DNA of 64,000 nucleotides from Candidatus Shapirobacteria bacterium (GCA_028704885.1 JAQWEN010000001.1:109172-173171), one strand, 5' to 3'; counted from the first letter of the stretch, positions 38,536-52,554 are shown. Program-made: numbers and translations. Notes: generated by a model not told the origin, from the sequence alone.

Positions 38536-41500
38536 TTACCTAAAATTGACAGCGCCGTTGTTGTAGACGGTTTTAACTTGTTCTGGGGTGAGGGCGTAGT
38601 TGTAGATACGAACGTCGTCGATTTGACCATTGAATATGGCTGGTGAAGAATAATATGGACTTTTGTTTATTCCTAAATAATTACTATATTGAACAATAGG
38701 GTTAGGAACACTATTGGAAGAAGCTACTAATTTACCATTTACATAGAGATTTGCAGTTCCTCCAGCCGTGGCAGTACCGACTAAGTGGTACCAAACACCA
38801 GTATTAAAAGAGATTCTAGGGAGAGTAGCGCGTATACCATCAACAGCGAAACCAATAGTATCTGTACCTGGATCTTTAAAAAACATATAGCCATTAGTGG
38901 CTGAACTATTACTATTTTTAGCAACCAACCATTCCCATTGAGCATTATTAGTATTCCATTTAATCCAAGAGGAAACGGTAATTCCAGTAGTAGGATTCAA
39001 TATGGAATTGTTAGCTATAGTTACATAATCATCTACTCCATCAAAATTTAGTGAGGAGTTGATGTGACCGCTAGCACCATTGCCCCAAGCAGTGCCAGAA
39101 GTGGTACAAGTACCGACAGAGGTTTGAGAGCCAGAAGAACCGATATTGATTGATCCAGTGTTACCTATTCCGGATGAGTTGTTGACTACGGAACCTTGGC
39201 ATTCGTCGAGCTTCCACCAGGCAATAGGGCCTCCTTTGTTGTAATCATAGGCGATTTGGGCAGGGGTGCGGGCATAATTGTAGATTTTAACCTGATCAAT
39301 AATGGCATTTGAAGAAGCTGACCAATTACGACCAATTTGATTTACAGGGCCAGTTGATTGTGAAGAACCTACTCCTAAAGTATCACCGACTCCATCAACA
39401 TACATATCCATGGTTCTGTTGCTGTGATTTACCCAGGTTAAATAATGCCAGTTGTTGTCAGCAATATTTATATTGCCATATTCGTAAAGCCAAGCACTGT
39501 TGTAATGGGCGTAAGAAATTTTTGAGTTTGCTATACGGAGGTCATTAGCGACGGGGCCGCCACTGGAATTGGATAAAATACTACCACTGACGGTGTTTGT
39601 TTTTACCCAAGCAGAAACTGTCCAATCGTTACCGCTGACTAAATTTATAGTGGAGGTCAACGTGACTCGATCATCAATTCCATCAAATTTTAAACCAGCA
39701 CCTGTATTTTTTTTACCAACTGTCCATGCTGGAGAAGATGTACTTACACCGGCACCAAGTAATCCGTTGTTGTGAGAGGTACCAGTGTCATAAGCGATAT
39801 TTCCAGCGTTTTCTTCAAAATTCCATTCGTCGATGGGAGGTAAACAAACTGAGGTATCTCCGGGGATGCAATATTCCAAAGAAGTGGTAGTGCCACCAAT
39901 GGTTTGATTGGTGGTACCAAAAACGACAGACGAACCTTGATTGTAGTCTTGTTTAACTTCGTCGGCGGTGAGGGCGCGATTGTAAATGCGTGGTTCGTCT
40001 AAAATCATTCCTCTTCCTGAATTGTTTAATCCTATATTGGAAATATTTCCAGTAGCCGAATCAATTAAATAATTAGATAAACCAGTAATTTCAACACTTT
40101 GATATAAAACACCATTCTTATACATTTTGGCGAAATGGGTAGCACTGTCGTAGGTGTAAACAATATGGTACCAATTCCCATCGAAAGGAACTGGAACAGT
40201 TGCTGCCCCTTTTCTAACACCATCAATATAAACATCTCCATGAATTAATCCCGTATTGTAAGAGTCGTAAAAATACCATGCATTTGGTGGTGATAAAAGC
40301 ATTACATCAGTTAACTGGTTATAACCAGTTGTTCTTTTCATCCAGATTGAAACCGTAACAGCATTTCTAAAATTTGGTTTATAGGGAATAATTAAAGAAT
40401 CATTTACTCCAGAAAAAGCAATTCCAGAATTATATTTACCAGTAGTCCAAGTTGGTTTGGTTGTACCAGCAAGATAACCATTTGTTTTATTTATTGAAGA
40501 ATCAAAGACACTAGTTCCAATATTTTCGTTAAGCTTCCAATAAGCGACTAAACTTGAATTTAAATCTGGAGCAGTGGAGGATTTGATGCCTAAATTGACT
40601 GAGGAACCAGATAAAGATCCACGAGAATTATAATCTTGTTTGATTTGATCGGCAGTGCGAGCATAAGGATAAATTTTTGGTTCATCAATCCAGCCGTTAA
40701 AAGCGAAATAACCACCAGCATAAGTTTCTCGGCCAATCGTAGTGTTGGCGGCAGTGCTACCAATATTACCAGTAGTGCCAGTAAAAGGGGAACCAATTTG
40801 TTTTCCGTTAGTATAGGCAGTGATTTTAGTACTAGCTCGAGTGATACAAACATGTGTCCATTGATTGAGTGAAAAAGTGTAATTCCAAGTAGGGGTGTTT
40901 ACTCCGTCGGCTTTTCGGGCTTCAATTCTAGTATTGGCTTGATTTAAGGTAAAACCCCAATAAGAATTATTCCAATTACCGGAAGACATAATGGTACCAG
41001 AATAATTTTTATGGTTACCTTTAATATTTATCCAAGCACACATAGTGTAATCGGTTAATTCAGTAAAATTATTATTAATACTGACACCGTCATCAACATT
41101 ATCAAAGGCTAAACATTTTCCAGAGACACATTCACTTTCGTTTTTCCAAATGGGAGCACTTAAAAAAGTCCCAGTATTATTTTGACTTGTTGAATCGTAA
41201 GCAGTAGTACCAACACCTTCGTCGAATTTCCAATAAGCAATTGGACCACCACCGACTTCTTCAGAAGATATGGATTCTATTGATTGACTACTATTTAATG
41301 TAATAGCACTTTCACGAACATAAACACTAGATTCTTGATATTGGTATAAAGATAAATGCAAACCAGAATCTGTGGGGGTAGTTGTACGAGAATTAGAGCA
41401 ATAATTACCACCACTAGTACAACCTAATTCTGTACTGGCAAAAGAACTTCTAGGTGTACAAGTCGGTGATCCGCCTCCTAGATACAGATAATCAATAGAT

Positions 41501-42414
41501 GAAATATCAATGCAGGTATAAAAAAAACGCCAACTATTACCATAACCATACATAAAATAATTATTAGTTAAATTAATATTTTGAACTCCACTAAGATTAT
41601 GAAATGTTGCTTTTGGACTGGAAGCATCTGAAGCAACATGAACCTGATTAAAATAAGTACGAATAGAACTACCAAGCATAGCTGTTTGTGTAACAGTGTC
41701 GACAACATTGAAATTTAAATTAGTACCCTCAACTCGCATGTCATTAAAAATAATATTATTACTTAAGTTAATTGTTTCGTGAGTGCTGTCATTAGCAAAA
41801 GCTTCTGATGGAAGACCATGCCAAACTTGGATCCAACCACCACTAGAATAAGTCATGTCGCAATTAACTTGAATGGAATCGGCTAAATTTCCAGTGGGAG
41901 TAATGTAGTATTGTTGAGTGCCTTTATTGTCGCTTCGATGTTGAAGAATGTTTTTACAGGAAATAGCTGGATTTTGTTGAGTACCCAATTGAGGTTCAAT
42001 ATTGGTGGCAACTGGATTACCGTAATAAACATAAATAGTATTGCCGGAGTTGGGAATAGAATCAAGTAAAACATAAATAGAAGTGGTACTAGTGTTACAA
42101 GCAAAATTGGTATTACCATCAATAAAATGAGTTAATAATTTTCCATTAATATTGGTGACTCGGATGTCGTCACAGGTATTTTTTATTTTTCCATCAGTAA
42201 TTAAAGTAGCGGTATCAAGAGTGATTTTTATATATTGATTAGTTGTGCTAGCTCCGGAATTTCCTATATTAATGGCTTTTCGATAACTCCAACTATCATT
42301 CCACCAACTAGCAGAGACTTTTTTACTAGGTAAAACAAAACGAGATAAAATAACAACTCCAATTAGGAGAAAAAAGAGAATAGTAAAAAGAGATTTGTAA
42401 GAAAGTTTAGACAC
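38536..42414 (-). CDS. Giant (1,292 aa) secreted or anchored protein with four LamG/ConA-like lectin domains
   Basis: Four repeats of the type 'FDG(V/I)DD.V.I.....L.....T(V/M)S.W(I/V)K.......(I/L)....S.......Y........G...Y.NG.......DEP.IYN.ALT..(E/Q)(V/I)K..YN' match the Laminin_G_3 family. N-terminal signal anchor. Cys-rich N-terminal region. Confidence 0.75.
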   Translation of the reverse strand: MSKLSYKSLFTILFFLLIGVVILSRFVLPSKKVSASWWNDSWSYRKAINIGNSGASTTNQYIKITLDTATLITDGKIKNTCDDIRVTNINGKLLTHFIDGNTNFACNTSTTSIYVLLDSIPNSGNTIYVYYGNPVATNIEPQLGTQQNPAISCKNILQHRSDNKGTQQYYITPTGNLADSIQVNCDMTYSSGGWIQVWHGLPSEAFANDSTHETINLSNNIIFNDMRVEGTNLNFNVVDTVTQTAMLGSSIRTYFNQVHVASDASSPKATFHNLSGVQNINLTNNYFMYGYGNSWRFFYTCIDISSIDYLYLGGGSPTCTPRSSFASTELGCTSGGNYCSNSRTTTPTDSGLHLSLYQYQESSVYVRESAITLNSSQSIESISSEEVGGGPIAYWKFDEGVGTTAYDSTSQNNTGTFLSAPIWKNESECVSGKCLAFDNVDDGVSINNNFTELTDYTMCAWINIKGNHKNYSGTIMSSGNWNNSYWGFTLNQANTRIEARKADGVNTPTWNYTFSLNQWTHVCITRASTKITAYTNGKQIGSPFTGTTGNIGSTAANTTIGRETYAGGYFAFNGWIDEPKIYPYARTADQIKQDYNSRGSLSGSSVNLGIKSSTAPDLNSSLVAYWKLNENIGTSVFDSSINKTNGYLAGTTKPTWTTGKYNSGIAFSGVNDSLIIPYKPNFRNAVTVSIWMKRTTGYNQLTDVMLLSPPNAWYFYDSYNTGLIHGDVYIDGVRKGAATVPVPFDGNWYHIVYTYDSATHFAKMYKNGVLYQSVEITGLSNYLIDSATGNISNIGLNNSGRGMILDEPRIYNRALTADEVKQDYNQGSSVVFGTTNQTIGGTTTSLEYCIPGDTSVCLPPIDEWNFEENAGNIAYDTGTSHNNGLLGAGVSTSSPAWTVGKKNTGAGLKFDGIDDRVTLTSTINLVSGNDWTVSAWVKTNTVSGSILSNSSGGPVANDLRIANSKISYAHYNSAWLYEYGNINIADNNWHYLTWVNHSNRTMDMYVDGVGDTLGVGSSQSTGPVNQIGRNWSASSNAIIDQVKIYNYARTPAQIAYDYNKGGPIAWWKLDECQGSVVNNSSGIGNTGSINIGSSGSQTSVGTCTTSGTAWGNGASGHINSSLNFDGVDDYVTIANNSILNPTTGITVSSWIKWNTNNAQWEWLVAKNSNSSATNGYMFFKDPGTDTIGFAVDGIRATLPRISFNTGVWYHLVGTATAGGTANLYVNGKLVASSNSVPNPIVQYSNYLGINKSPYYSSPAIFNGQIDDVRIYNYALTPEQVKTVYNNGAVNFR

Positions 42415-42432: not shown

Positions 42433-42846
42433 TTAGTAAAAGACCACCTTAACTTGTTGGGGGATAATGCTGTTTTTAGTTTTAGCAGTAACATCGAAAC
42501 GACCAGGAATATTGCTGGATAAATCAAAAACGGCCTTACCAGAATCGTCGGTAATGTTTTGAACTTCAGAGATACTGATTTGAGAGGAAGTAGTGAGACT
42601 AATATTTTGATTTGGGACACCGAGTCCACGACCGTCGAGAATAAAAACCGTAACGCGTATTTTTTCTTTATTATCGGCTTTGGCTTGAAGAGGAGAGGCA
42701 AAGAGATAGGAATTTTCTAAAACAACAGAAGATTGATTGCCGACTGAGGCTTTTTTAACGAAAATGGTGGTTCTTAAAACTAAAAAGACTGAGGCAATTA
42801 AAGCGATAGATAAAAAAAGAATGATAAATAAATATTTTTTATTCAC
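42433..42846 (-). CDS. Small TM-anchored Ig-like (Big-type) domain protein; paralog of 37115..37528; co-transcribed upstream of the LamG giant gene
   Basis: TM helix 'LFIILFLSIALIASVFLVL'. 'ASPLQAKADNKEKIRVTVFILDGRGLGVPNQNISL...ITDDSGKAVFDLSS...FDVTAKT...VKVVF'. Its stop lies 18 nt before the giant-gene start. Confidence 0.5.
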   Translation of the reverse strand: MNKKYLFIILFLSIALIASVFLVLRTTIFVKKASVGNQSSVVLENSYLFASPLQAKADNKEKIRVTVFILDGRGLGVPNQNISLTTSSQISISEVQNITDDSGKAVFDLSSNIPGRFDVTAKTKNSIIPQQVKVVFY

Positions 42847-42965: not shown

Positions 42966-43871
42966 TTATTTGGCGATTTTCAGAGCGCGGGGAAGAACAT
43001 CAGGATAAACATGAGGGAAATGTTGAGTTTTGATGGCTGGGTAATAAGTGCGGAGAGCAGGGAGAAATCGAAGTCGAGAAATTCGATGATAAGTATTGGA
43101 ATTGAAAAATAAAAGTAAGAAAAAAAGGATAAGAGTAAAGATAAAAATGGGGAGAAGAACCATAAGATAAGTGTGCTGCATTAAGAATAACCAAAAAAGG
43201 GAAGGAAGAAAATAGAGCAAAGTGTTGGACTTTGGAGAATTATTACCATCATATTCGACTGAAGTATAAAGACGATAATTGCTGGAATAAGCAGTTGGTA
43301 AGTTGAGACTATAATCGCCGTTATCATCACTAACGGCTTTTAACGGGGGCAAGGAGTAGGCTAGAGCAGTTTTAGGAAATGATTTGGCAGCATCGTTAAC
43401 TTTATAAAAGAAAATAGTAATAGGAGAATTGGGAATGCTTTGACCGGAAGTAATAATAGTGGAATTGGGATTGATTTTATCTTGTTCAAGAGAAATTGTA
43501 GGGGGAAGAATTATTGGGCCAATGTCGGTGTGATAATTAGCGGCCGGAGGCGGGGGAATACAAACCAGAGTGCTATTGCGATCATAATTGTCTTTAGTCT
43601 GTAAACATAATTCGGAAGGATTCTTAGGAAGAATAATTTTATTAAATTCGAAATAACCATCATTTTGACTAAAGGTCAAAGAATAAATATTGACACCAGT
43701 TAATTCGACTTTAGAATTGGGAGAAGTGTGACCAAAGATAGTGACTTCATTTTCACCAATGGAAGCAAAAATTTTAACCGATTCTGATTGTTGTAAATCA
43801 AAAGCAAGAGAAGATGTTGGAAAAATAAAAAATAAAAATAAAAGAAAAAACCACATAATTAAGTTTAACAA
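42966..43871 (-). CDS. Secreted Ig-like-fold protein with a C-terminal TM anchor; it occupies the CscD-like position of the surface locus
   Basis: Signal peptide. Two beta-rich segments, 'VTIFGHTSPNSKVELTGVNIYSLTF' and 'ITIFFYKV...DDNGDYSLNLP'. C-terminal TM 'LFWLFLMQHTYLMVLLPIFIFTLILFFLLLFF'. Confidence 0.45.
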   Translation of the reverse strand: MLNLIMWFFLLFLFFIFPTSSLAFDLQQSESVKIFASIGENEVTIFGHTSPNSKVELTGVNIYSLTFSQNDGYFEFNKIILPKNPSELCLQTKDNYDRNSTLVCIPPPPAANYHTDIGPIILPPTISLEQDKINPNSTIITSGQSIPNSPITIFFYKVNDAAKSFPKTALAYSLPPLKAVSDDNGDYSLNLPTAYSSNYRLYTSVEYDGNNSPKSNTLLYFLPSLFWLFLMQHTYLMVLLPIFIFTLILFFLLLFFNSNTYHRISRLRFLPALRTYYPAIKTQHFPHVYPDVLPRALKIAK

Positions 43872-43898
43872 AAAACTCCCCCAGTTGCGGGGGGAGTG
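43868..43898 (-). terminator. Intrinsic terminator on the minus strand downstream of 43916..44920
   Basis: ctcccccc-agttgc-ggggggag hairpin with an adjacent run (aaaaa on the plus strand, T-run on the minus strand). Confidence 0.5.
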
Positions 43899-43915
43899 AA
43901 AGTTTAATCAAGAAA

Positions 43916-44920
43916 TTATTGATCTTTATATTTTTTCTTTAAAGTTTCGAGTTCTTTTTCAAGCTCATCAACTTTTTCATTGGTTTCTTTTTTACCACCA
44001 GTCTTTTTCTTAAGAGCAAGAATAATAACAACGATGATAATAAGGGCAGTGCCAACTAAGATAAGGAATCTCCAAGGAATAACCCAAAAGAAAATAGCAG
44101 CAGTGGCAATGCTCCCAGCAGTACCATAAACGGCGTTTAACTCGGCTTTGTAACGACCAAAAAGCCATTTTTTAGCCAATTGATTTTGGAATTCTCTGAT
44201 TTTTCCTGGGAAGATATTGGTACCATCAGCGTTGAATTTAATATCAGCAGTTTTTAGACCAAACATGTTGGTGACTTTAATACTACCAACTGGTCTGATG
44301 TGAACATCGGATAAATTTTGGATAATACTTTTGAAATCAATAGGTCCAAATTCGGAGAATTTAGGAGCGGTAAAATCTTTAACTGTGGCGTTTTGGCGAA
44401 TATTTCCAGGAATGGTGACGTAAACTAAAGTACCGACTTTGGTTTCAATAGATGCACCAGTGGAATTAACAATGGAGACTTGACTGTCTGGGCTATGAAG
44501 AACCATGGCGTAGTGACCACCAGGAAGAGCATTGGCTGGAGGCATAATAGTTAAGATTAAAGATTTAGTTTCACCACCTTTTAGTTTGACAGAAGAAGGA
44601 GAAACCTGAATCCAAGAACTGGCAGCCCAACGATTATCTTCTTTGGTAGAGGTAATAATTGTAGGAGTGCCGATATCATCATTAACAACAAAATCTTCAA
44701 CAGTAATGGTTATAATTCTTTCTTTACTAGATTCATTTCTGACTTTAATGGTTTGACTAGTAACACCATCTGGTTTGACGGTAACTTCAAGACGAGGAGG
44801 AATGGCGGTTAAACCTTCAGCACTTTGGGCTCGAACGGGGGCGGTTAGAAGAGAATAGTTCGTAGCTAAAAGAAGTAATAGAGTGCTGAGTTTGATGGTG
44901 TTTTTGGTGGCAGGTTTCAT
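43916..44920 (-). CDS. DUF916/DUF3324-like cell-surface protein (CscA-type) with a C-terminal TM anchor and a charged tail
   Basis: Signal peptide. 'LTAIPPRLEVTVKPDGVTSQTIKVRNESSKERIITITVEDF' is a chaperone-like beta domain. C-terminal TM 'FLILVGTALIIIVVIILAL' then KKKTGGKKE... The similarity is remote and judged by eye. Confidence 0.4.
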   Translation of the reverse strand: MKPATKNTIKLSTLLLLLATNYSLLTAPVRAQSAEGLTAIPPRLEVTVKPDGVTSQTIKVRNESSKERIITITVEDFVVNDDIGTPTIITSTKEDNRWAASSWIQVSPSSVKLKGGETKSLILTIMPPANALPGGHYAMVLHSPDSQVSIVNSTGASIETKVGTLVYVTIPGNIRQNATVKDFTAPKFSEFGPIDFKSIIQNLSDVHIRPVGSIKVTNMFGLKTADIKFNADGTNIFPGKIREFQNQLAKKWLFGRYKAELNAVYGTAGSIATAAIFFWVIPWRFLILVGTALIIIVVIILALKKKTGGKKETNEKVDELEKELETLKKKYKDQ

Positions 44921-44936
44921 TTTTTGTTTTTAATTT

Positions 44937-46364
44937 TTAGAAGGTAGCAGTAGCTGTATAAGTTATTTTACTTTCATAATCACCAGCTTCCTGACCAGTG
45001 TGAACGGTAATACGATAACAAACGTAGGCTGATTCTGAACTGCCAGGAAGGGCGGTTCTTTGCATAATATTTTGAGCCTGACCTGAACCAATACCAAAAG
45101 CTTTAAACTGACCGGCAGTAAAAGGAATACTACTGCCAACATTAAACATAGTGTAACCAAATTCTGATCTAGTATTACTAGCACTAGTCCAAGTTTTGGC
45201 TGTAGTGTAGTTACAACCAGTAGCATTACAGGTAGTGTCAGGAATAGTAGTAGCAGTATTAATATTTTTCATGACAGCATTTTCATAAGCAGTAACGACA
45301 TAACCACCAGAGGCATTGGTAAGACAAGATAGTCGTTGAGCTAATTGATTGGCGGTGGAACCGATGGTAAGTGATCCAAAAATAACACTGCTTGAAGTGG
45401 TATTGGCAGCACCAGAGGCTAGAGAAGTACCAAGTCCGCAGGCAGTAGAACCGATCGAATTGGCACCGACATTATCAATAGTAAAAGTGAGAGTAGGGTC
45501 GACGGTGGCAGTAACTCGGACTGATTCAACTACGGCAATTTTACCGAAAGTTTGATCGAGAACATTACTACCAGAATCTAAATGGCGGACAATGAAAGTG
45601 AGAACGTCAGCGCTACCTTCAGTGTCATTATTTTTACTAGGATTGATAAGAAGGGAACTACCAGAACCGACAATCATACTACCACCGACACCAACTGGAT
45701 TTGAACTACCAGCACCAGCAGGACATTGAATAACATGGTAATAGGAAGTAACACTGGGGCTGCCGGAAGTGACAGCAACAGTAGTACCGGCTGAGTAGGT
45801 AGCAGCACCACCATTAAAGGGGCAAGTAATAGCACCGGCGGTTAAAGCACCGGCATCAAAACCATCCATATCAGGAATTCGGTCAGTAGTACCAACACCA
45901 GTGGTGGCCTTAATTAGAAATTGCCAAAAACCACCAATAGCATTAACTTGTGGTTCAAAATAGACAGTATGAATAGCTGATCTAGTAGAAATAATACTGC
46001 CACCATAAGGAATAGCGACGGCAGAGATACCAGTGTTTAACATGATGGTTCTGGTATCACCAATATCTTTTACATAATAAGTACTTTGACTACCACCAAG
46101 ACCAATAGAGATGGTGTCACCGACGAATAAATTATTAGTAGTTTTTGAAGGGAAGGAAGCACCGAGATCAATTTTAACGATAGTACCATTGGCTGAAGTA
46201 CCAAGACCAACCCCACCATAATAGGATAATTGAGAATTAGAAATAACGTCTTTGACATTTTTAGGCGGAACAGACTTAATCTGATTTCGGTTAGCAAAGA
46301 AGGTTAAATAGATAGGTAATATTAAAACGAGGAACGTTAAAACTCGAAATAAGCCTTTTTTCAT
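44937..46364 (-). CDS. WxL-like surface protein (CscB/C-type), Ser/Thr/Gly-rich; paralogous to 51162..51926
   Basis: Shared with 51162..51926: the Cys pair plus 'K(T/V)WTS' motif, 'TTCNATGCNYTTAKTWTSAS' vs 'DTKCDSNTCSESTSDVWTSST'. Shared C-terminus: 'QEAGDYESKITYTATATF' vs 'QTAGTYQNSINYIAIPKY', resembling the WxL terminal motif aGtY.g.ltWtL. Confidence 0.4.
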   Translation of the reverse strand: MKKGLFRVLTFLVLILPIYLTFFANRNQIKSVPPKNVKDVISNSQLSYYGGVGLGTSANGTIVKIDLGASFPSKTTNNLFVGDTISIGLGGSQSTYYVKDIGDTRTIMLNTGISAVAIPYGGSIISTRSAIHTVYFEPQVNAIGGFWQFLIKATTGVGTTDRIPDMDGFDAGALTAGAITCPFNGGAATYSAGTTVAVTSGSPSVTSYYHVIQCPAGAGSSNPVGVGGSMIVGSGSSLLINPSKNNDTEGSADVLTFIVRHLDSGSNVLDQTFGKIAVVESVRVTATVDPTLTFTIDNVGANSIGSTACGLGTSLASGAANTTSSSVIFGSLTIGSTANQLAQRLSCLTNASGGYVVTAYENAVMKNINTATTIPDTTCNATGCNYTTAKTWTSASNTRSEFGYTMFNVGSSIPFTAGQFKAFGIGSGQAQNIMQRTALPGSSESAYVCYRITVHTGQEAGDYESKITYTATATF

Positions 46365-46413
46365 TTTATTTATGTAATTTAGTGATAAATAAAGATAGAT
46401 TTTTTTAATATCC

Positions 46414-46441
46414 TTGTCAAGAAGATAGTTATCTGTATAAT
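46414..46441 (+). promoter_or_regulatory. Sigma70-like promoter upstream of ppdK: TTGTCA, 16-nt spacer, TATAAT
   Basis: ttgtca at 46414-46419 and tataat at 46436-46441. Confidence 0.45.
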
Positions 46442-46477
46442 ATTGGAGCGTTAAAAGTTAATTATAAAAACAGAAAA

Positions 46478-49129
46478 ATGACGAATACAAAAAAGAATGT
46501 CTATTTTTTTGGTAAGGGAAAAGCTGAAGGCGACAAGGATATGAAATATATTCTTGGCGGTAAAGGCGCTAATTTGGCAGAAATGACCAATTTGGGAATT
46601 CCAGTACCAGCAGGATTTACTATTTCAACTGAGGTATGTCAATACTATTATAGTAATGGCAAACAATATCCAGCTGAATTGAAAAGGGATGTAGAAAAAG
46701 AAATTGCCCGTTTAGAAGAAAGCACTGGTAAAAAATTTGGTGATGACGAAAATCCATTGTTAGTATCAGTTCGATCTGGAGCAGCCGCTTCGATGCCAGG
46801 AATGATGGATACTATTTTAAATTTAGGTTTAAATGAAAAAGTGGTTGAAGGAATGGTAAGGAAAACTGGTAATGCCAGATTCGTTTGGGATTCTTATCGT
46901 CGATTTATTCAAATGTACTGCAATGTAGTAGAAAACATGGAACATGAAAAATTGGAACATGTGATTAACACTGTTAAAGCAGAAAAAGGAATTAAAGAAG
47001 ATACGGCCATGACAGCTGAAGATTGGCAAAAAGTGGTTAAAGGTTATAAAGAAATTTATAAAATTGAAAAAGGACATGATTTTCCAAGCGATGCCAACGT
47101 TCAACTTTGGGGAGCAATTGATGCTGTTTTTGGTTCATGGAATAATCCACGAGCAATAATTTATCGTCAATTAAATAAAATTGATGAGAAAAAAATCTTT
47201 GGAACTGCAGTGAATGTTCAATCGATGGTTTTTGGAAATATGGGTGATGACTGTGGCACAGGAGTAGCTTTTACCCGTAACCCATCAACCGGAGAAAATA
47301 TAGCTTATGGAGAATATTTGATGAATGCCCAAGGTGAAGATGTGGTGGCAGGAATCAGAACTCCAAAGAAATTGGAATCTTTAAAAGAAGACAATGAAGT
47401 TGTCTACAATGAATTAATGGCAATCTTCGATAAGTTGGAAAAACATTACAAGGATATGCAGGATGTGGAATTTACTATTGAAAATAGTAAATTGTTTGTT
47501 CTTCAAACCAGAAATGCTAAAAGAACTGCTCCAGCTATGGTTAAAGTAGCTGTTGATTTAGTTAAAGAAGGTATGATTGATGAAAAAACAGCTCTAACTA
47601 GAGTTGAGGCTGACAAATTAGATCAATTACTTCATCCAGCTTTAGATCCAAAAGAAAAATCTAAATTCCAATTAATTACTAAAGGTTTACCAGCTTCTCC
47701 AGGCGCGGCTTCTGGTCAAGTGGTTTTTAATGCGGAAACAGCTTTGGAATGGGTAGAAAATGGTAAAAAAGTGATTTTGGTTAGAGCAGAAACTTCGCCT
47801 GAAGATATTGCGGGAATGAATGTGGCAGCTGGTATTTTAACTGCTAGAGGCGGAATGACTTCTCACGCAGCAGTTGTGGCTCGAGGTATGGGTCGATGTT
47901 GTGTGGCTGGTTGTGAATCTTTAACTGTAATGGAAAGTTCTAAGCTATTTAAAGTAGGTGATATTGAAGTCAAAGAAGGTGACTTAATCACTTTAGATGG
48001 AACTGCCGGTGAAGTTTTCTTGGGTAAAGTGCCAACTATGGAAGCTCAATTAAGTGATGATTTTGCTCAATTAATGAAATGGGCTGATGAAACTCGAAAA
48101 TTGGAAGTCAGAACTAATGCTGATACTCCAAAAGATGCTAAAACAGCTCGAGGATTTGGAGCTCAAGGTATTGGTCTTTGTCGAACTGAACACATGTTTT
48201 TTGAAGAAGACAAAATTTTTGCTATTCGACAAATGATTATTTCCGATACGGTCGAACAAAGAGAAGCCGCTTTGGCTAAAATTTTCCCAATGCAGAAAAA
48301 TGATTTCAAACAATTATTTGACATCATGAAAGGTCTTCCAGTCAAAATTCGATTATTAGATCCACCTCTACATGAATTTGTACCTCATGAAGATAAAGAT
48401 ATTGAAGCATTGGCTAAAGAAATGGGAATTTCTTTTGAGAAATTAAAAGAAAAAGTGGAATCACTTCATGAAGCTAATCCAATGATGGGTCATCGTGGAT
48501 GTCGTTTAGGGGTAACTTTCCCAGAAATCAATCAAATGCAAGTTAAAGCCATAATGAGCGCTGCCTGCGAATTGAAGAAAGAGCAAAATGCAGAAATCGT
48601 TCCAGAAATCATGATTCCATTAATTGCTGATGTGGAAGAATTAAAATGGCTTAAAGCAAAATTAATTCCAGTTATCGAAGAAACCATGAAATCTTATGGA
48701 GTGACTTTGAAATATGAAATTGGAACCATGATTGAAATTCCACGAGCAGCAGTGACTGCTGATGAAATTGGAGCAGAAGCTGAATTCTTCTCTTTTGGAA
48801 CTAATGATTTAACTCAAATGACTTATGGATTTAGCCGAGATGATGCTGGCAAATTCATTAAAGAATATTTGGCTCAAAAAATCTTAGTAGAAGATCCATT
48901 CAAGAGTGTTGACCAAAAAGGTGTTGGTAAACTCATGGAAATGGCGGTTAAATTAGGTCGAGCTGGTAATCCACATTTGAATATTGGTATTTGTGGAGAA
49001 CAGGGTGGAGATCCAGATACAGTTAAATTCTGTCACAGAATTGGACTAAATTATGTGTCTTGCAGCCCTTACCGAGTACCAATTGCTAGATTGGCTGCAG
49101 CTCAGGCGGTGGTGGAATCTAGTAAATAA
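46478..49129 (+). CDS. ppdK: Pyruvate, phosphate dikinase
   Basis: 'YILGGKGANLAEM' lies in the N-terminal ATP-grasp region. 'RGGMTSHAAVVARGMGRCCVAGC' carries the phospho-His. 'NIGICGEQGGDP' is in the PEP-utilizing TIM barrel. The 883-aa length is typical. Confidence 0.95.
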   Translation: MTNTKKNVYFFGKGKAEGDKDMKYILGGKGANLAEMTNLGIPVPAGFTISTEVCQYYYSNGKQYPAELKRDVEKEIARLEESTGKKFGDDENPLLVSVRSGAAASMPGMMDTILNLGLNEKVVEGMVRKTGNARFVWDSYRRFIQMYCNVVENMEHEKLEHVINTVKAEKGIKEDTAMTAEDWQKVVKGYKEIYKIEKGHDFPSDANVQLWGAIDAVFGSWNNPRAIIYRQLNKIDEKKIFGTAVNVQSMVFGNMGDDCGTGVAFTRNPSTGENIAYGEYLMNAQGEDVVAGIRTPKKLESLKEDNEVVYNELMAIFDKLEKHYKDMQDVEFTIENSKLFVLQTRNAKRTAPAMVKVAVDLVKEGMIDEKTALTRVEADKLDQLLHPALDPKEKSKFQLITKGLPASPGAASGQVVFNAETALEWVENGKKVILVRAETSPEDIAGMNVAAGILTARGGMTSHAAVVARGMGRCCVAGCESLTVMESSKLFKVGDIEVKEGDLITLDGTAGEVFLGKVPTMEAQLSDDFAQLMKWADETRKLEVRTNADTPKDAKTARGFGAQGIGLCRTEHMFFEEDKIFAIRQMIISDTVEQREAALAKIFPMQKNDFKQLFDIMKGLPVKIRLLDPPLHEFVPHEDKDIEALAKEMGISFEKLKEKVESLHEANPMMGHRGCRLGVTFPEINQMQVKAIMSAACELKKEQNAEIVPEIMIPLIADVEELKWLKAKLIPVIEETMKSYGVTLKYEIGTMIEIPRAAVTADEIGAEAEFFSFGTNDLTQMTYGFSRDDAGKFIKEYLAQKILVEDPFKSVDQKGVGKLMEMAVKLGRAGNPHLNIGICGEQGGDPDTVKFCHRIGLNYVSCSPYRVPIARLAAAQAVVESSK

Positions 49130-49157
49130 GTTTGTCAGTTTTTCAGATTGTCAGATA

Positions 49158-49185
49158 AAAAGCCCCCGAAAGGGGGCTTTTTGAT
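49158..49185 (+). terminator. Intrinsic terminator after ppdK
   Basis: aaagccccc-gaaa-gggggcttttt. Confidence 0.7.
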
Positions 49186-49196
49186 ATCATGATTGT

Positions 49197-49739
49197 ATGG
49201 ATTATCACAGAAGATCAATTCGATTGGATGGATTCGATTATTCAAACAATAGATATTATTTTGTGACGGTTTGTTGTCAAAACAGAGAAAAAATATTTGG
49301 TGAAATTGGTGTAGGGGCGGGTCTTGTGCCCGCCCTTATGGAAAATAAAATGATTTTGAATGATGTTGGGATTATGGTGAAAAAAATTATTTTGGAATAT
49401 TTTAATAAAAATAAATTAATTTTTTTGGATGAATTTATTATTATGTCTGATCATATTCATATGATTGTGGTGATTAAAAATAAATTTATAAATAATGATG
49501 TGAACGATGAAATAAATACAAGGGCGGGCACAAGACCCGCCCCTACATTGGGAATGATTATGGGTGAATTTAAATCAATAATTACCAATGAATATATTAA
49601 AAATATAAAAGAAAATAATTGGCCACGTTTTAATAAACGATTGTGGCAACGTAATTATTACGAAAGAATAATTCGCAATGAAAAAGAATATTTAATGATT
49701 AAAAAATATATTAAAGATAACCCTATAAATAAAAAGTAA
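49197..49739 (+). CDS. REP-associated tyrosine transposase (RAYT; IS200/Y1 HUH family) with two in-frame REP-like hairpin insertions
   Basis: 'YYFVTVCCQNRE' and 'SDHIHMIVV' give the HuH motif. 'LWQRNYYERIIRNEKEYL' is the catalytic Tyr region typical of RAYT/TnpA-REP. The segments 'GVGAGLVPAL' and 'TRAGTRPAPT' are encoded by GC-rich palindromes. Confidence 0.75.
   Translation: MDYHRRSIRLDGFDYSNNRYYFVTVCCQNREKIFGEIGVGAGLVPALMENKMILNDVGIMVKKIILEYFNKNKLIFLDEFIIMSDHIHMIVVIKNKFINNDVNDEINTRAGTRPAPTLGMIMGEFKSIITNEYIKNIKENNWPRFNKRLWQRNYYERIIRNEKEYLMIKKYIKDNPINKK
49311..49335. repeat. REP-like GC-rich hairpin (GTAG-gggcggg-tcttgtg-cccgccc) inside the RAYT gene
   Basis: gtaggggcgggtcttgtgcccgccc. Its inverted partner lies at 49523-49546. 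Confidence 0.75.
49523..49546. repeat. REP-like GC-rich hairpin, inverted copy ending ...CTAC; together with 49311-49335 it forms a REPIN-like pair
   Basis: gggcgggcacaagacccgcccctac is the exact reverse complement of the first copy. Confidence 0.75.
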
Positions 49740-49757
49740 TAGTGATAATATTGGGTT

Positions 49758-50060
49758 ATGAACGCAGAAAAACTGGTGAATAGTTTTGAAGAGTATTCAG
49801 AGACAGGGGGACAGTTGAACCAAGAAGGTTTTAATAAAGCAATGGAAATTAGAAAAATAATAAGTGGTCAAAGAGTTAAGGATTTTGGACCATCTTTTCA
49901 TCAAGTAAAAGGAATGGCGGAGAGATATAAAGTAGAAATTACTGAAGAACAAATTAATTTTTATATCTTATTAAGAGAAAGTAATGTTGGTGGTGAAAAT
50001 GGTGGAGTATGTGATAGGGTAATTTTTGATGAAACTCGTCGTTTATTGACTGGAGTATAA
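49758..50060 (+). CDS. Hypothetical protein
   Basis: 100-aa ORF with no recognisable motif. It sits tightly between the RAYT gene and the next ORF. Confidence 0.35.
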   Translation: MNAEKLVNSFEEYSETGGQLNQEGFNKAMEIRKIISGQRVKDFGPSFHQVKGMAERYKVEITEEQINFYILLRESNVGGENGGVCDRVIFDETRRLLTGV

Positions 50061-50067
50061 TTAAATT

Positions 50068-50307
50068 ATGAAAAAAGAAATAAAAACAGCGGAATGCTGC
50101 GAAAAAAAAGATCAAAAAAAATACCGCTGTAATTGCGGTGGAAATAATGGTTCAAATGGAGCTATTTATGGATTAAGCGTAATCGGAGCGCTGTTTTACT
50201 TTTTAAGTAAAGCAACTGGTTTTAGTATGGTGATGGTCGGAATTGGGAAATCAATTTTCTGGCCAGCAGTATTGATGTTTAAATTGCTGACTTATTTAGG
50301 GATGTAA
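50068..50307 (+). CDS. Small Cys-rich membrane protein, hypothetical
   Basis: 'CCEKKDQKKYRCNCGG' is followed by two hydrophobic helices. Confidence 0.35.
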   Translation: MKKEIKTAECCEKKDQKKYRCNCGGNNGSNGAIYGLSVIGALFYFLSKATGFSMVMVGIGKSIFWPAVLMFKLLTYLGM

Positions 50308-51153
50308 TTTTAGTTTTTTGATTTTTTTAATCCCCAAAATTATTCCAGCGATTAGTAACAAAAATAAAATAGGGGAGATGGGGAGGACGTAAAAAGAAGT
50401 ATCAAGAGGCGGGGTATTGAGAGCGGGATTTAAGACAACAGAGACTTTGTAGTGGCCGGGCCAAAGGGGAGGATTAAGGGAACAAGAACTTTCATTTAAA
50501 CAACTGATGTTACGGCTGTGGTGATTTAAAACATTGTCGGGACTTAATTCAAATTCTTTAATGGTTTTATCATTTTTAGTAATGGTAATTTTGCCATTAG
50601 TTTTAAAAAAGAAGTCGGAATTATTTTTAATTTGGCCGTTAATAGTGATGGAATTAAAAAAGACATCTTTTATTTTTGGGGAAATGGAAAAATTTTGAAT
50701 GGCGGATTCGACTTTGGGATTTTCGACATTAGAAACAGTTAATAAAAGATGGGAACCGATTTTGCCGGTGGCTTGGCTAAAATTATCATTAGATTCAATA
50801 GCATTTTGATTTTGAAAAACAAAAAAAGTGTAATAGTTGTCGGATAAGTCGGTATTAGAGTTAGTTTTTATTTTTAAAACTAATTGTTGTTTGGAATGGG
50901 CAGCTAAAGTAAAAGGTTGACCGATTTTAATATCAGAATTAGCCAGAGAAAAATCAATATTAGGATTATTAACGGCTTGATTATAATTAACCGAGCCGTC
51001 GGTACCACTGGGAATCCAAGGTAAAATTTCAGTATTAAGAGTAATTTCGGAATCAGAATTATTGAAAATGTCGTAGGCCTGGACAAGATTAATGCCGGGT
51101 TTTAAAACGTATTCTGATTGAGCTGGAGAGATGGATAAATTAAAGTTAGACAT
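50296..51153 (-). CDS. DUF916/DUF3324-like cell-surface protein (CscA-type), second locus
   Basis: The N-terminal 'SISPAQSEYVLKPGINLVQAYDIFNNSDSEITLNTEILPW' is a beta-rich domain. C-terminal TM 'ISPILFLLLIAGIILGI' then KKIKKLK. Same architecture as 43916..44920. Confidence 0.4.
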   Translation of the reverse strand: MSNFNLSISPAQSEYVLKPGINLVQAYDIFNNSDSEITLNTEILPWIPSGTDGSVNYNQAVNNPNIDFSLANSDIKIGQPFTLAAHSKQQLVLKIKTNSNTDLSDNYYTFFVFQNQNAIESNDNFSQATGKIGSHLLLTVSNVENPKVESAIQNFSISPKIKDVFFNSITINGQIKNNSDFFFKTNGKITITKNDKTIKEFELSPDNVLNHHSRNISCLNESSCSLNPPLWPGHYKVSVVLNPALNTPPLDTSFYVLPISPILFLLLIAGIILGIKKIKKLKLHP

Positions 51154-51161
51154 AGAGGGGT

Positions 51162-51926
51162 TTAATATTTTGGGATGGCGATGTAATTAATAGAATTTTG
51201 ATAAGTGCCGGCAGTTTGATCTGGAGAAATATTAACTTTATAAGTAATCGTGGCGATGTGATCCTTGACGGGAATATTTTCGGACATAATAATTTTGGCA
51301 GTTTCGCCGGCAGAATTATCAGCAAATTGACGGAAATAAGTGGAATTAGAGAAAAAACTAGAAGTACCATCACCACTGCCATTAAGACCAAAACCGTAAG
51401 CGGTACTGCTGGTCCAAACATCTGATGTTGATTCGGAGCAAGTATTAGAATCGCATTTAGTGTCAGGGATAGTAGAATTACCACCAATAGTTTTTAAGGG
51501 ATGATTGGCAATAGTAAGAATGTCATAGCCATGAGCGGTGGGAGTGCTGATGGTTAAAGTATTAGAGACAGTCGAGCCAACGCTAGGAACCAAATTGCCA
51601 AAATTTAAATCAAGATTACTAATTTGAAAAGAGAAAGGAATATTACTTTCGTAGATATATTGAAAACCAGCTTTGACAGTATAACCAGTGCTGTCATATT
51701 GACCGGGAGCATTTTGGCCAACAGAGTCGGTTAGAGTGTAAGTACTAGAAGTTTTTTTGCCACCAGTCATATTAAAGTTACCGAATTCAATATGGAAATT
51801 GTTGGAATCAAAAGTCTGAGCAAATAAGATGTTAGATCGTAGATGATAGATCGTAGATAAAAATAAAAAGGTTATAAAAAAAATAAGGGGTTTTTTATTC
51901 ATCTGATTCTTGATCAATTTGGGCAA
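51162..51926 (-). CDS. WxL-like surface protein (CscB/C-type), second locus
   Basis: Signal peptide. 'FHIEFGNFNMTG'. The Cys pair plus 'DVWTSST'. C-terminal 'AGTYQNSINYIAIPKY'. Paralogous to 44937..46364. Confidence 0.4.
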   Translation of the reverse strand: MPKLIKNQMNKKPLIFFITFLFLSTIYHLRSNILFAQTFDSNNFHIEFGNFNMTGGKKTSSTYTLTDSVGQNAPGQYDSTGYTVKAGFQYIYESNIPFSFQISNLDLNFGNLVPSVGSTVSNTLTISTPTAHGYDILTIANHPLKTIGGNSTIPDTKCDSNTCSESTSDVWTSSTAYGFGLNGSGDGTSSFFSNSTYFRQFADNSAGETAKIIMSENIPVKDHIATITYKVNISPDQTAGTYQNSINYIAIPKY

Positions 51927-52554
51927 TTAATTGTTCGGAAGAATTTAGAAGGGATTTGGCAGAATCTTTAATTTTTTTGGCTTTTTCTTTTTGACTAGGA
52001 GAAATAGAAGAAGATAAAAGTTCTGAACTGCTATCAATAATTTGGCAAAGACCGGTTTTAAGTTTTAAAGAGTGCCAAAGTAAAACATCGGTTTCGTCGG
52101 CAGAAATGATTTGATCATCTTTAATTTTGGCTAAAAATTGTTTGCCGATAAACCAGGCCAGAGGAGTGATTAATAAAAGAGAAGAGAGAGAAATGACAGA
52201 AAGGAAGGAATTGAGTGATTGTGATAGAATTAGAACTAGAAAAAAGGAATAAGAAAGAGTGGTGGTGGCTGGGTTTTGAAAGGCAATGAAAAATAAAAGG
52301 AAATAAATAAGAAAGAAAAAAGGAGAATTTAGGCCGTTGGTGGCGAAGACAATGATGTTGACTAAAAGAGCAATTAAATGAATAGAAAGAGTTTTTTTGG
52401 TGAAATAGAGAATTAGAAGGGTAATTGAGACTAGAGCGATTAATTGGGGAGCAAAATAAAGAAAATTAGAGACGGAAAAAAAGAAGGAAAATAAAGAAAT
52501 TAAAAAAAATAAAATAATACTAATAATCTGAGACATCATTATAGTATTAATCAT
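51895..52554 (-). CDS. Hypothetical polytopic membrane protein with a C-terminal Ser/Glu-rich cytoplasmic tail
   Basis: About five TM helices, then 'ISADETDVLLWHSLKL...KEKAKKIKDSAKSLL'. Confidence 0.4.
   Translation of the reverse strand: MINTIMMSQIISIILFFLISLFSFFFSVSNFLYFAPQLIALVSITLLILYFTKKTLSIHLIALLVNIIVFATNGLNSPFFFLIYFLLFFIAFQNPATTTLSYSFFLVLILSQSLNSFLSVISLSSLLLITPLAWFIGKQFLAKIKDDQIISADETDVLLWHSLKLKTGLCQIIDSSSELLSSSISPSQKEKAKKIKDSAKSLLNSSEQLIAQIDQESDE

What the first reader, a model, noticed from the sequence alone, without database searches (positions are those of the whole stretch)
42966..51926. Two Firmicutes-style WxL/DUF916-like ('Csc'-type) cell-surface gene clusters in a CPR-like genome
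Cluster A runs from 42966 to 46364 (WxL-like, DUF916/DUF3324-like and an Ig-like anchored protein). Cluster B runs from 50296 to 51926 (WxL-like and DUF916/DUF3324-like). The clusters are paralogous. Shared features are the Cys-pair plus (T/V)WTS motif, 'AG(D/T)Y...(T/N)Y' termini, and a TM plus KK-rich tail on the CscA-like proteins. They mirror the cell-surface complex loci of lactobacilli and enterococci, which bind plant or host polysaccharides. Their presence suggests a Gram-positive-type envelope and a surface complex acquired or retained by this lineage. The RAYT and ppdK genes lie between them.
Basis: inference. Interest (0 to 1): 0.6.

Follow-up and report, generated by a model that had tools for sequence, protein, structure and literature searches.

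The report
Split Pam-type pilus operon in Shapirobacteria
The two "clusters" are two halves of one pilus operon of a recently described kind found in ultrasmall CPR bacteria, split here by inserted genes, and its membrane-anchored assembly chaperones are distant relatives of a surface protein family of lactobacilli and enterococci.

Summary
The ORFs, motifs and coordinates are as described. The genome is a Candidatus Shapirobacteria MAG (CPR).

- **WxL reading fails.** The "WxL-like" proteins A1 and B1 and 105 orthologues give no Pfam WxL hit. True WxL proteins score 1e-40 to 1e-72.
- **Pam reading fits.** B1 aligns full-length to NCBIfam PamT (1e-12). A1 and B1 carry the Pam pilin C-terminal domain. 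All scores are below curated cut-offs, so this is a divergent relative.
- **DUF916 is partly right.** 42 of 50 A2 orthologues hit PF06030. Profile comparison with Firmicute WxLIP gives 92% probability, against at most 0.6% for reversed controls.
- **One operon.** Many related genomes show one contiguous operon: TM219, PamT, chapB, pilin, chapA, anchor, Big_1, and in one locus LamG. Here ppdK and RAYT split it.
- **No sign of transfer from Firmicutes.**
- **Oddity.** The tip chaperone B2 has no signal peptide in 63 loci. All 63 have the upstream TM219 gene.

Verdict: a divergent Pam-type donor-strand pilus locus.

The parts
51895..52554 (-). TM219: a conserved protein of about six TM helices with a C-terminal helical domain. 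It is the first gene of the operon. Its function is unknown.
   Evidence: It lies directly upstream of the PamT-like gene and overlaps it in the Shapirobacteria-type loci, including all 63 that have a signal-peptide-less chapB. It has no Pfam or NCBIfam hit. Its C-terminal part gives only weak matches to histidine-kinase DHp domains, E 0.017-0.08.
51162..51926 (-). B1: PamT-like tip subunit, with a signal peptide, a conserved N-terminal segment and a Pam pilin C-terminal domain. The likely true start is the ATG at 51902, giving 246 aa.
   Evidence: NCBIfam CPR_pilus_PamT E 1e-12, residues 23-254 against model positions 11-241 of 241. Pam_pilin_C E 5e-9. 48 of 49 orthologues hit both models. 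No WxL hit. Most orthologues are about 240-250 aa.
50296..51153 (-). B2 (chapB): a membrane-anchored chaperone paralogue of the PapD/WxLIP type, paired with the tip subunit. It has no N-terminal signal peptide.
   Evidence: hhalign against the A2 family gives 99.9%, E 1.4e-36. Against the Firmicute WxLIP core it gives 85%, E 6e-6 over 220 columns. The ORF cannot be extended upstream. 63 related loci also lack the signal peptide.
46478..50307 (+). Insertion that splits the operon: ppdK, an IS200/RAYT-type transposase and two small ORFs, all on the opposite strand. It is not part of the pilus system.
   Evidence: In L017, L021, L023, L031, L048, L052-L054, L058, L059, L063, L066 and L067, chapB is followed directly by the pilin gene. 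Y1_Tnp E 1.5e-6.
46392..46420 (-). Promoter-like site upstream of the pilin gene, in the divergent intergenic region shared with ppdK.
   Evidence: TTGACA-17-TATCTT, 10 of 12 matches. This is a consensus match only. The number of such sites in the region does not exceed the shuffled expectation.
44937..46364 (-). A1: major pilin, with a signal peptide, an N-terminal beta-sandwich domain (residues 35-279), a conserved linker and a C-terminal Ig-like domain (290-475).
   Evidence: AF2 model with pLDDT 79.9 overall and about 90 in the C-terminal domain. Pam_pilin_C E 2e-4, and 27 of 56 orthologues hit it. hhalign of its C-terminal domain against that of B1 gives 99.3%. Foldseek hits are chaperone-usher pilins (CfaB 1e-5; CsuE, FimH) and the TasA fibre.
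45495..45530 (-). Putative donor strand of the pilin: the linker VESVRVTATVDP, residues 279-290.
   Evidence: It contains one of the densest runs of invariant columns in 56 orthologues: E280, V282, R283, A286, T287, D289, P290. It lies between the two domains and has low pLDDT in the monomer model. In the Pam pili the linker is the donated strand (paper). The assignment here is an inference.
43916..44920 (-). A2 (chapA): a membrane-anchored PapD-like / DUF916-like chaperone, with a signal peptide, two beta-sandwich domains, a TM helix at 283-306 and a charged cytoplasmic helix.
43875..43897 (-). Terminator-like hairpin between chapA and the anchor gene. It may act as an attenuator that sets stoichiometry.
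   Evidence: 8-bp stem with 6 G-C pairs followed by a T run. This is a pattern match only.
42966..43871 (-). A3: PamR-like terminator/anchor candidate, with a signal peptide, an N-terminal strand, two Ig-like domains and a C-terminal TM helix.
   Evidence: It follows chapA in 16 related CPR genome loci. Big_6 and CarboxypepD_reg hits are weak. Its mature N-terminus, ESVKIFASIGENEVTIFG (nt 43731-43787), resembles the pilin linker ESVRVTATVDPTLTFTI. No structure was predicted for it.
42433..42846 (-). A0: a small Big_1 (invasin/intimin-type Ig) protein with an N-terminal hydrophobic segment. It is a conserved downstream gene of the operon.
   Evidence: Pfam Big_1 1.8e-16. It follows A3 in 13 related loci.
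38536..42414 (-). Protein of 1292 aa with DUF2341 and four LamG domains. It is a likely adhesin on the same strand, 18 nt downstream of A0.
   Evidence: Laminin_G_3 2.4e-77, DUF2341 6.9e-9. It sits in the same position in L021. Whether it belongs to the pilus was not tested.

Best explanation
The region encodes one Pam-type pilus system, with membrane-anchored chaperones and no usher, in a Candidatus Shapirobacteria (Microgenomatia, CPR) genome. The ancestral operon is TM219, PamT-like tip, chapB, major pilin, chapA, PamR-like anchor and Big_1, followed in one locus by a LamG protein. In this genome ppdK, a RAYT transposase and two small ORFs have been inserted between chapB and the pilin gene.

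Proposed mechanism:
1. The subunits are exported by Sec.
2. Each chaperone (B2 for the tip, A2 for the pilin) is tethered to the cell membrane by its C-terminal TM helix. It completes the incomplete Ig-like C-terminal domain of its subunit with a donated beta-strand.
3. The conserved linker strand of the next pilin (VESVRVTATVDP) then displaces the chaperone strand. This donor-strand exchange extends a linear fibre from the tip subunit B1.
4. A3 ends growth and anchors the fibre by inserting its similar N-terminal strand (ESVKIFASI) into the last pilin, while its own TM helix holds it in the membrane.
5. The fibre probably mediates attachment of the epibiont to a host or a surface.

Shown here: the homologies, the folds, the domain layout, the conservation of the linker and the synteny.

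Inferred by analogy with the Ca. Mycosynbacter amalyticus Pam pili and with chaperone-usher pili: strand donation, order of assembly, the anchoring role of A3 and the biological role.

The chaperones also belong to the DUF916/WxLIP superfamily of Firmicutes.
For: - B1 aligns full-length to NCBIfam PamT (E 1e-12). A1 and B1 match Pam_pilin_C.
- The C-terminal domains of A1 and B1 are homologous: 99.3%, E 1e-20.
- The A1 model has an N-terminal domain, a linker and a C-terminal domain, and the linker sequence is invariant across orthologues.
- Foldseek of the A1 model finds donor-strand pilins and fibres: CfaB, CsuE, FimH, TasA.
- A2 and B2 are paralogues.
- Each chaperone gene follows its subunit gene. 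The whole set is contiguous on one strand in many CPR genomes.
- The mature N-terminus of A3 mimics the pilin linker.
- The published Pam operon has the same parts list: PamT, two-domain pilins, TM-anchored PapD-like PamC/PamD and TM-anchored PamR. Its homologues are reported in Microgenomatia.
Against: - All Pam HMM scores fall below NCBIfam's curated cut-offs: 48 against 240 bits for PamT, and 36 and 21 against 55 bits for Pam_pilin_C.
- No filament, complex or strand exchange was modelled or observed here.
- A3 rests on weak Ig-like hits and on a motif resemblance found with a pattern derived from the two sequences themselves.
- B2 has no signal peptide. This is hard to reconcile with an extracytoplasmic chaperone.
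- The published system is so far only a preprint.
Confidence: 0.75

Rival explanations
1. This is a genuine WxL/Csc cell-surface complex, as in lactobacilli and enterococci. It would be acquired from, or shared with, Firmicutes. WxL-domain proteins would be held non-covalently on peptidoglycan by a WxLIP (CscA) protein, binding polysaccharides rather than forming a pilus.
For: The chaperone-like proteins are remote DUF916/WxLIP relatives with the same architecture. The gene set of a small subunit, a large subunit and a TM-anchored protein of two Ig-like domains parallels WxL clusters (paper PMC10599100).
Against: PF13731 hits none of A1, B1 or 105 orthologues. An HMM built from true WxL proteins finds nothing in the window. 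Profile comparison equals the reversed controls. PF11797 is absent. No LPXTG CscD-like protein is present. The subunits match CPR Pam models instead. The operon is conserved across 80 CPR genomes and its G+C content is typical of the window.
Confidence: 0.05
2. This is a non-filamentous surface complex. The TM-anchored proteins of two Ig-like domains permanently hold one subunit each at the membrane by strand complementation, as proposed for WxLIP and WxL. They would display adhesive N-terminal domains without polymerisation.
For: Homology to WxLIP, for which a stable 1:1 complex has been proposed and crystallised (PDB 9i25, seen). No polymer was modelled here. Pam HMM scores are below threshold.
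Against: The invariant inter-domain linker of A1 has no obvious role in a 1:1 complex. A dedicated tip-like subunit without the N-terminal domain, and an anchor whose N-terminus mimics the linker, fit ordered polymerisation. The homologous Pam proteins do form filaments.
Confidence: 0.15
3. These are unrelated Ig-like surface proteins or adhesins that merely share beta-sandwich folds and low-complexity Thr/Ser-rich strands. The similarities would be convergent.
Against: With signal peptides and TM helices trimmed, the within-system homologies remain very strong: 1e-20 and 1.9e-30. Cross-family negative controls are all at or below 1%. Gene order is conserved across 80 genomes.
Confidence: 0.03

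Closest known systems
Pam pilus of Candidatus Mycosynbacter amalyticus (Saccharimonadia; Troman et al., bioRxiv 10.64898/2026.03.03.709456; NCBIfam NF058579 PamT, NF058581 Pam_pilin_C)
   Same: - A tip subunit that aligns end to end with the PamT model.
- A two-domain pilin with an N-terminal beta-sandwich, a conserved linker and a C-terminal Ig-like domain with paired cysteines.
- Two PapD-like chaperones, each with a C-terminal TM helix.
- A TM-anchored protein of two Ig-like domains with an extra N-terminal strand, like PamR.
- No usher or sortase among the operon ORFs examined.
- A CPR host.
- A giant tail-fibre-like protein nearby.
   Different: - Scores are below NCBIfam's cut-offs, so these are not equivalogs.
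- Only one major pilin was found in the window, against PamA, PamB and PamE.
- The gene order starts with the tip gene.
- Each chaperone gene directly follows its subunit gene.
- The tip chaperone lacks a signal peptide, whereas all Pam components are reported to have one.
- An extra conserved polytopic membrane protein, TM219, heads the operon.
- Big_1 and LamG proteins follow it.
- In this genome the operon is split by ppdK and RAYT.
WxL / Csc cell-surface clusters of Firmicutes (WxL PF13731; WxLIP = DUF916 PF06030 + DUF3324 PF11797; Siezen 2006, Hassan and Williamson 2023)
   Same: - The TM-anchored protein of two Ig-like domains is a remote homologue of WxLIP over both domains.
- The cluster logic is the same: a small subunit consisting of the C-terminal domain only, a large subunit with N-terminal domains, and an anchored partner predicted to insert a strand into the subunit.
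   Different: - No WxL domain is detectable by HMM or by profile comparison.
- PF11797 is not detected.
- The window's own proteins fall below the PF06030 threshold.
- There is no LPXTG protein.
- The subunits carry Pam-type domains.
- WxL proteins are described as peptidoglycan-bound rather than as filaments.
Chaperone-usher pili of Gram-negative bacteria (Pap/Fim, CFA/I, Csu)
   Different: None of the operon ORFs examined is an usher, and CPR cells are taken to lack an outer membrane. The chaperones are membrane-tethered rather than soluble. The pilins have an extra large N-terminal domain. No Pfam PapD_N hit is found in 112 family members.
Sortase-assembled pili of Gram-positive bacteria
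   Different: A1 (ends TATATF), B1 (ends IPKY) and A3 (ends with a TM helix and a tail) have no LPXTG sorting signal. No sortase gene lies in the operon.

Membership tests
Pam pilus system (CPR) | Tip subunit homologous to PamT | tested here: met
   B1 against NF058579 gives E 1e-12 and covers model positions 11-241 of 241. 48 of 49 orthologues hit it, best 3e-16.
Pam pilus system (CPR) | Reaches NCBIfam curated cut-offs (equivalog or domain-level naming) | tested here: not met
   PamT: 48 bits against 240. Pam_pilin_C: 36.3 bits (B1) and 21.3 bits (A1) against 55. This is a divergent relative, not an equivalog.
Pam pilus system (CPR) | [quoted passage not shown] | tested here: met
   The AF2 model of A1 has an N-terminal domain at 35-279, a linker at 280-290 and a C-terminal domain at 290-475 with pLDDT about 90. 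The linker columns are invariant. Whether the domain is an open, incomplete fold could not be inspected.
Pam pilus system (CPR) | PapD-like chaperones carrying a C-terminal TM helix | tested here: met
Pam pilus system (CPR) | All components carry N-terminal signal peptides | tested here: not met
   B2 starts MSNFNLSISP with no hydrophobic N-terminal segment, and its ORF cannot be extended. The same holds in 63 related loci. A1, A2, A3 and B1 do have such segments.
Pam pilus system (CPR) | PamR-like terminator/anchor: two FnIII/Ig-like domains, a C-terminal TM helix and an N-terminal donor strand | tested here: inconclusive
   A3 has a signal peptide, weak Big_6 and CarboxypepD_reg hits and a C-terminal TM helix. 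Its N-terminal strand resembles the pilin linker.
Pam pilus system (CPR) | Subunits polymerise by donor-strand exchange into a filament | not testable with these tools
   This needs multimer modelling or cryo-EM.
WxL / Csc cluster (Firmicutes) | At least two WxL-domain proteins (PF13731) | tested here: not met
   No hit at E <= 1 for A1 or B1. None of 56 and none of 49 orthologues hit at E <= 0.1. hhalign is below 1% and equal to reversed controls. Positive controls score 1e-40 to 1e-72.
WxL / Csc cluster (Firmicutes) | WxLIP first domain, DUF916 (PF06030) | tested here: inconclusive
WxL / Csc cluster (Firmicutes) | WxLIP second domain, DUF3324 (PF11797) | tested here: not met
   No PF11797 hit in A2, B2 or 112 relatives. 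The hhalign alignment does, however, run through the second domain.
WxL / Csc cluster (Firmicutes) | C-terminal TM helix with a basic tail on the WxLIP/CscA protein | tested here: met
   A2 ends ...IIIVVIILALKKKTGGKK... and B2 ends ...LLLIAGIILGIKKIKKLKLHP. The model places a helix at 283-306.
WxL / Csc cluster (Firmicutes) | LPXTG-anchored CscD-type protein in the cluster | tested here: not met
   No LPXTG motif is seen at the C-terminus of any operon protein (translations).
Classical chaperone-usher pili | PapD-like chaperone fold | tested here: met
Classical chaperone-usher pili | Outer-membrane usher and a soluble periplasmic chaperone | tested here: not met
   Both chaperones are TM-anchored. 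None of the ORFs of the conserved operon is an usher-sized beta-barrel protein. The rest of the genome was not searched.

The most novel reading that the evidence does not exclude
The CPR Pam pili and the Firmicute WxL/Csc clusters are two branches of one ancient assembly system of single-membrane bacteria, built on a membrane-anchored chaperone and no usher. On this reading WxLIP/CscA is a PapD-like donor-strand chaperone. WxL proteins of lactobacilli, enterococci and Listeria would then be assembled, and perhaps polymerised, by strand complementation rather than simply sticking to peptidoglycan. In addition, the Shapirobacteria branch would export or insert its signal-peptide-less tip chaperone by an unknown route that depends on the co-occurring TM219 membrane protein.
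Probability: 0.3. Interest if true: 0.75.

Novelty: new variant of a known kind. Interest (0 to 1): 0.5.

Why it matters
CPR/Patescibacteria make up a large share of bacterial diversity and appear to live attached to other cells. Their attachment machinery is mostly unknown.

- **Spread of the system.** This locus shows that the recently described Pam pilus extends, in a divergent and well-conserved form, through Shapirobacteria and related Microgenomatia.
- **Parts list.** It gives a clean set of components for that branch: a tip subunit with its own chaperone, a pilin with its own chaperone, an anchor, and associated adhesin-like proteins.
- **Link to Firmicutes.** The chaperones link by sequence to the DUF916/WxLIP family. 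The preprint does not mention this link and describes the system as CPR-exclusive. The link bears on the origin of both systems and suggests a testable assembly mechanism for WxL surface proteins in gut and food bacteria.
- **Export puzzle.** The signal-peptide-less, C-terminally anchored chaperone is a concrete puzzle in protein export.

Tried and rejected
1. **Programmed -1 frameshift.** B1 ends atC CCA AAA TAT TAA, a canonical X_XXY_YYZ slippery site, and B2 lies in the -1 frame 8 nt downstream. A shift would fuse B1 to B2 and so explain the missing signal peptide. Rejected: across 76 related loci the spacing between the two genes ranges from 0 to 534 nt, and all three relative frames occur.
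2. **An upstream start for B2.** Rejected: there is an in-frame TAA 39 nt upstream with no start codon between.
3. **WxL domain related to the Pam C-terminal domain.** By eye, three motifs line up: PLSIDF..FG with PFSFQI..FG, GWxL with G(Y)x(V/I), and YxTxLTWxL with YxxxI(T/N)Y(T/I)A. hhalign in local, global and low-mact modes gives scores no better than reversed profiles. The idea is unsupported.
4. **Foldseek hit of the pilin model to 9i25_C.** This looked like a possible WxL match. Chain C turned out to be the WxLIP chain, so it says nothing about WxL.
5. **Sequence searches of the PDB.** Single proteins and the chaperone-family profile found nothing useful. A true small WxL protein found no chain either.
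8. **NCBIfam and Pfam scans of A3, TM219 and signal-peptide-bearing chapB relatives.** Nothing informative.
9. **Raw hhalign runs with signal peptides left in.** These inflated scores; for example, PamT against chapA gave 74% over 26 signal-peptide columns. All quoted values therefore use trimmed alignments.

Full report
**What is there.** On the minus strand the window carries A1 (44937-46364, 475 aa), A2 (43916-44920, 334 aa), A3 (42966-43871, 301 aa), B1 (51162-51926, 254 aa) and B2 (50296-51153, 285 aa). An 883-aa ORF that I read as ppdK from its sequence (46478-49129), an IS200/Y1-type transposase (49197-49739) and two small ORFs lie between them on the plus strand. Exact matches in the protein collection carry the tags PHE32_00780, PHE32_00785 and PHE32_00815 of a Candidatus Shapirobacteria MAG, on a 735-kb contig. 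The CPR assignment is therefore right. G+C content is about 0.34-0.40 across the region, like the rest of the window.

- Pfam finds no WxL (PF13731) and no DUF3324 (PF11797) in any of the five proteins.
- PF06030 (DUF916, now WxLIP_PGBD) appears only in A2 and below threshold: E 0.036, 14.5 bits against a cut-off of 27.3.
- NCBIfam instead aligns B1 end to end with CPR_pilus_PamT (E 1e-12, model positions 11-241 of 241).
- It also places the Pam_pilin_C domain at the C-terminus of B1 (5e-9) and of A1 (2e-4). All these scores are below the curated cut-offs.

The PamT and Pam_pilin_C model names match the Pam pili of Ca. Mycosynbacter amalyticus, described in a 2026 preprint. That system has two-domain pilins joined by a donated linker strand, a single-domain tip PamT, PapD-like chaperones PamC and PamD with C-terminal TM helices, and a TM-anchored RbmA-like PamR. 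The preprint reports homologues in Saccharimonadia and Microgenomatia.

**Family-level evidence for the subunits.**
- Of 49 members of the B1 family alignment, 48 hit PamT (best 3e-16) and Pam_pilin_C (best 2e-10). None hits WxL.
- Of 56 members of the A1 family alignment, 27 hit Pam_pilin_C and none hits WxL.
- The C-terminal domains of A1 and B1 are homologous: BLASTP 8e-14, hhalign 99.3% and E 1e-20 on trimmed alignments.
- The AF2 model of A1 (pLDDT 79.9) has an N-terminal beta-rich domain (35-279), a short low-confidence linker (281-286) and a well-predicted C-terminal domain (290-475).
- The linker VESVRVTATVDP holds one of the densest runs of invariant columns in the family. The preprint reports the same for the donated strand.

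**The chaperone-like proteins.**
- The AF2 model of A2 (pLDDT 78.5) has two beta-sandwich domains, a TM helix (283-306) and a charged helix.
- B2 shows no BLASTP similarity to A2. A representative-library search found 465 relatives of B2. Their alignment matches the A2 family at 99.9%, E 1.4e-36 over 271 columns, and at 1.9e-30 after trimming the signal peptide and TM helix.

**How right was 'DUF916-like'?**
- 42 of 50 A2 orthologues hit PF06030 at E <= 0.01, best 8.6e-8. So do 8 of 62 B2 relatives. None hits PapD_N or PF11797.
- To compare profiles I retrieved true WxL clusters from metagenomes with the WxLIP motif NQIDKxxxYFDLK, which gave 29 loci. I confirmed them as positive controls: PF06030 plus PF11797 at 1e-40 to 1e-54, and PF13731 at 1e-40 to 1e-72.
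- With signal peptides and TM helices removed, the WxLIP core against the chapB core gives 85%, E 6e-6 over 220 columns covering both domains.
- Against the combined chapA and chapB profile it gives 91.7%, E 7.8e-7. Reversed-profile and cross-family controls give at most 1%.
- The WxL domain against either pilin C-terminal domain cannot be told apart from reversed controls.
- An HMM built from true WxL proteins finds nothing in the window.

The anchored partner is therefore a remote WxLIP relative. The subunits are not detectably WxL.

**One operon, not two clusters.** A scan of 185,579 species genomes with the B1 family returned 80 loci. About half are labelled Shapirobacteria, Woesebacteria, Pacebacteria, Parcubacteria, Microgenomates or Patescibacteria; most of the rest carry labels such as 'uncultured Gammaproteobacteria' or 'Pseudomonadales' that look wrong. 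Mapping the four family HMMs plus A3, A0, LamG and the upstream ORF onto them shows one order on one strand: TM219, PamT, chapB, pilin, chapA, A3 and Big_1. The run is contiguous in L017, L021, L023, L031, L048, L052-L054, L058, L059, L063, L066, L067 and others. LamG follows in L021; the other loci end before that point. In the window, ppdK, RAYT and the two small ORFs sit between chapB and the pilin gene. Other genomes have different inserts of 0.6 to 4.9 kb at the same junction. The window holds no further pilin or chaperone paralogues.

**A3.** It has a signal peptide, weak Ig-like hits (Big_6, CarboxypepD_reg) and a C-terminal TM helix. It follows chapA in 16 related CPR genome loci. Its mature N-terminus, ESVKIFASIGENEVTIFG, resembles the pilin linker ESVRVTATVDPTLTFTI. 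A pattern written from these two sequences occurs nowhere else in ORFs longer than 120 aa in the window. That test is circular and is only a lead. It does fit PamR, whose N-terminal strand is proposed to cap the last pilin.

**Mechanism.**
- Shown: the homologies, folds, domain layout, linker conservation and synteny.
- Inferred: Sec export; complementation of the subunit C-terminal domains by the membrane-tethered chaperones; donor-strand exchange with the pilin linker to build a linear fibre from the B1 tip; termination and anchoring by A3; and a role in attachment.
- A promoter-like site lies upstream of A1 (46392-46420). A terminator-like hairpin lies between A2 and A3 (43875-43897). Both are pattern matches only.

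**An unexplained feature.** B2 has no signal peptide and its ORF cannot be extended. A -1 frameshift fusion with B1 looked possible at the slippery site C_CCA_AAA. It is refuted by the variable spacing and frames in relatives. In 63 loci chapB lacks a signal peptide, and all 63 have TM219 upstream. Twelve more distant loci have a chapB with a signal peptide by inspection, and none has TM219. The script scored 11 of these; L076 fell just under its hydropathy threshold. The association is perfect but is confounded by phylogeny. TM219 has about six predicted TM helices. Its C-terminal helical part gives only weak matches to histidine-kinase DHp domains, E 0.017-0.08.

**Comparison and novelty.** The locus works like, and is a divergent relative of, the Pam pilus. 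It is not a WxL/Csc cluster, because the defining WxL domain was tested and is absent. It is not a classical chaperone-usher system, because none of the operon ORFs examined is an usher and the chaperones are tethered to the membrane. The preprint does not mention WxL or DUF916 and calls Pam exclusive to CPR. No paper in the library links WxL with donor-strand assembly or with CPR. The chaperone-to-WxLIP link is therefore the most interesting by-product. I rate the locus a new variant of a known kind, interest 0.5.

Noticed in passing
window 50296-51153 and 51895-52554; loci L002-L081: The tip chaperone B2 has no signal peptide although it has a C-terminal TM anchor. In 63 related loci the same holds, and all 63 have the TM219 membrane-protein gene upstream. 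Twelve loci whose chapB has a signal peptide all lack TM219. How B2 reaches the outer face of the membrane is unexplained.
   Followed up: partly
window 46365-50307; L003, L006, L008, L018, L040, L041, L049, L050, L062, L064: The junction between chapB and the pilin gene is a recurrent insertion point. This genome has ppdK, RAYT and two small ORFs there. Other genomes have unrelated inserts of 0.6 to 4.9 kb, and many have none.
   Followed up: partly
window 51162-51926: The NCBI record annotates B1 (PHE32_00815) as 202 aa, which removes the signal peptide. Most orthologues are about 240-250 aa, which supports the ATG at 51902. The TTG at 51926 overlaps the end of TM219.
   Followed up: partly
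window 24254-35941 and 35928-36356: A 3895-aa protein carries a Peptidase_S74 (endosialidase / tail-fibre chaperone) domain. An overlapping upstream 142-aa ORF has only the N-terminal SAM-like domain of a phage integrase. The Pam preprint notes a tail-fibre-like protein that co-localises with pam operons.
   Followed up: no
window 55437-62570: A 2377-aa protein with Kelch repeats and fibronectin-III domains is another giant putative surface protein close to the operon.
   Followed up: no
window 43875-43897: A strong terminator-like hairpin (8-bp stem, 6 G-C pairs, T run) lies between the chaperone gene A2 and the anchor gene A3. It might lower expression of the anchor relative to the pilin.
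   Followed up: no
window 49515-49549: A 15-bp G+C-rich palindrome lies inside the RAYT/IS200-like ORF. It looks like a REP-type element and encodes the odd Gly/Ala/Pro-rich stretches of that protein.
   Followed up: no
window 37055-37528 and 42433-42846: There are two small Big_1 (invasin-type Ig) proteins. One follows the anchor gene. The other lies on the opposite strand beyond the LamG gene. Related loci also show a Big_1 gene followed by a convergent Big_1-like gene.
   Followed up: no
loci L004, L005, L007, L013, L063, L069, L074 and others: Many genome records that carry this CPR operon are labelled 'uncultured Gammaproteobacteria', 'Pseudomonadales', 'Candidatus Methanoperedens' or 'Limisphaerales'. 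These labels look like mislabelled or mis-binned MAGs.
   Followed up: no
window 51895-52554 (C-terminal 80 residues): The cytoplasmic tail of TM219 weakly resembles histidine-kinase DHp domains (PDB 4mt8 E 0.017, 7n0e 0.05). It lacks a conserved histidine and has no catalytic domain.
   Followed up: partly
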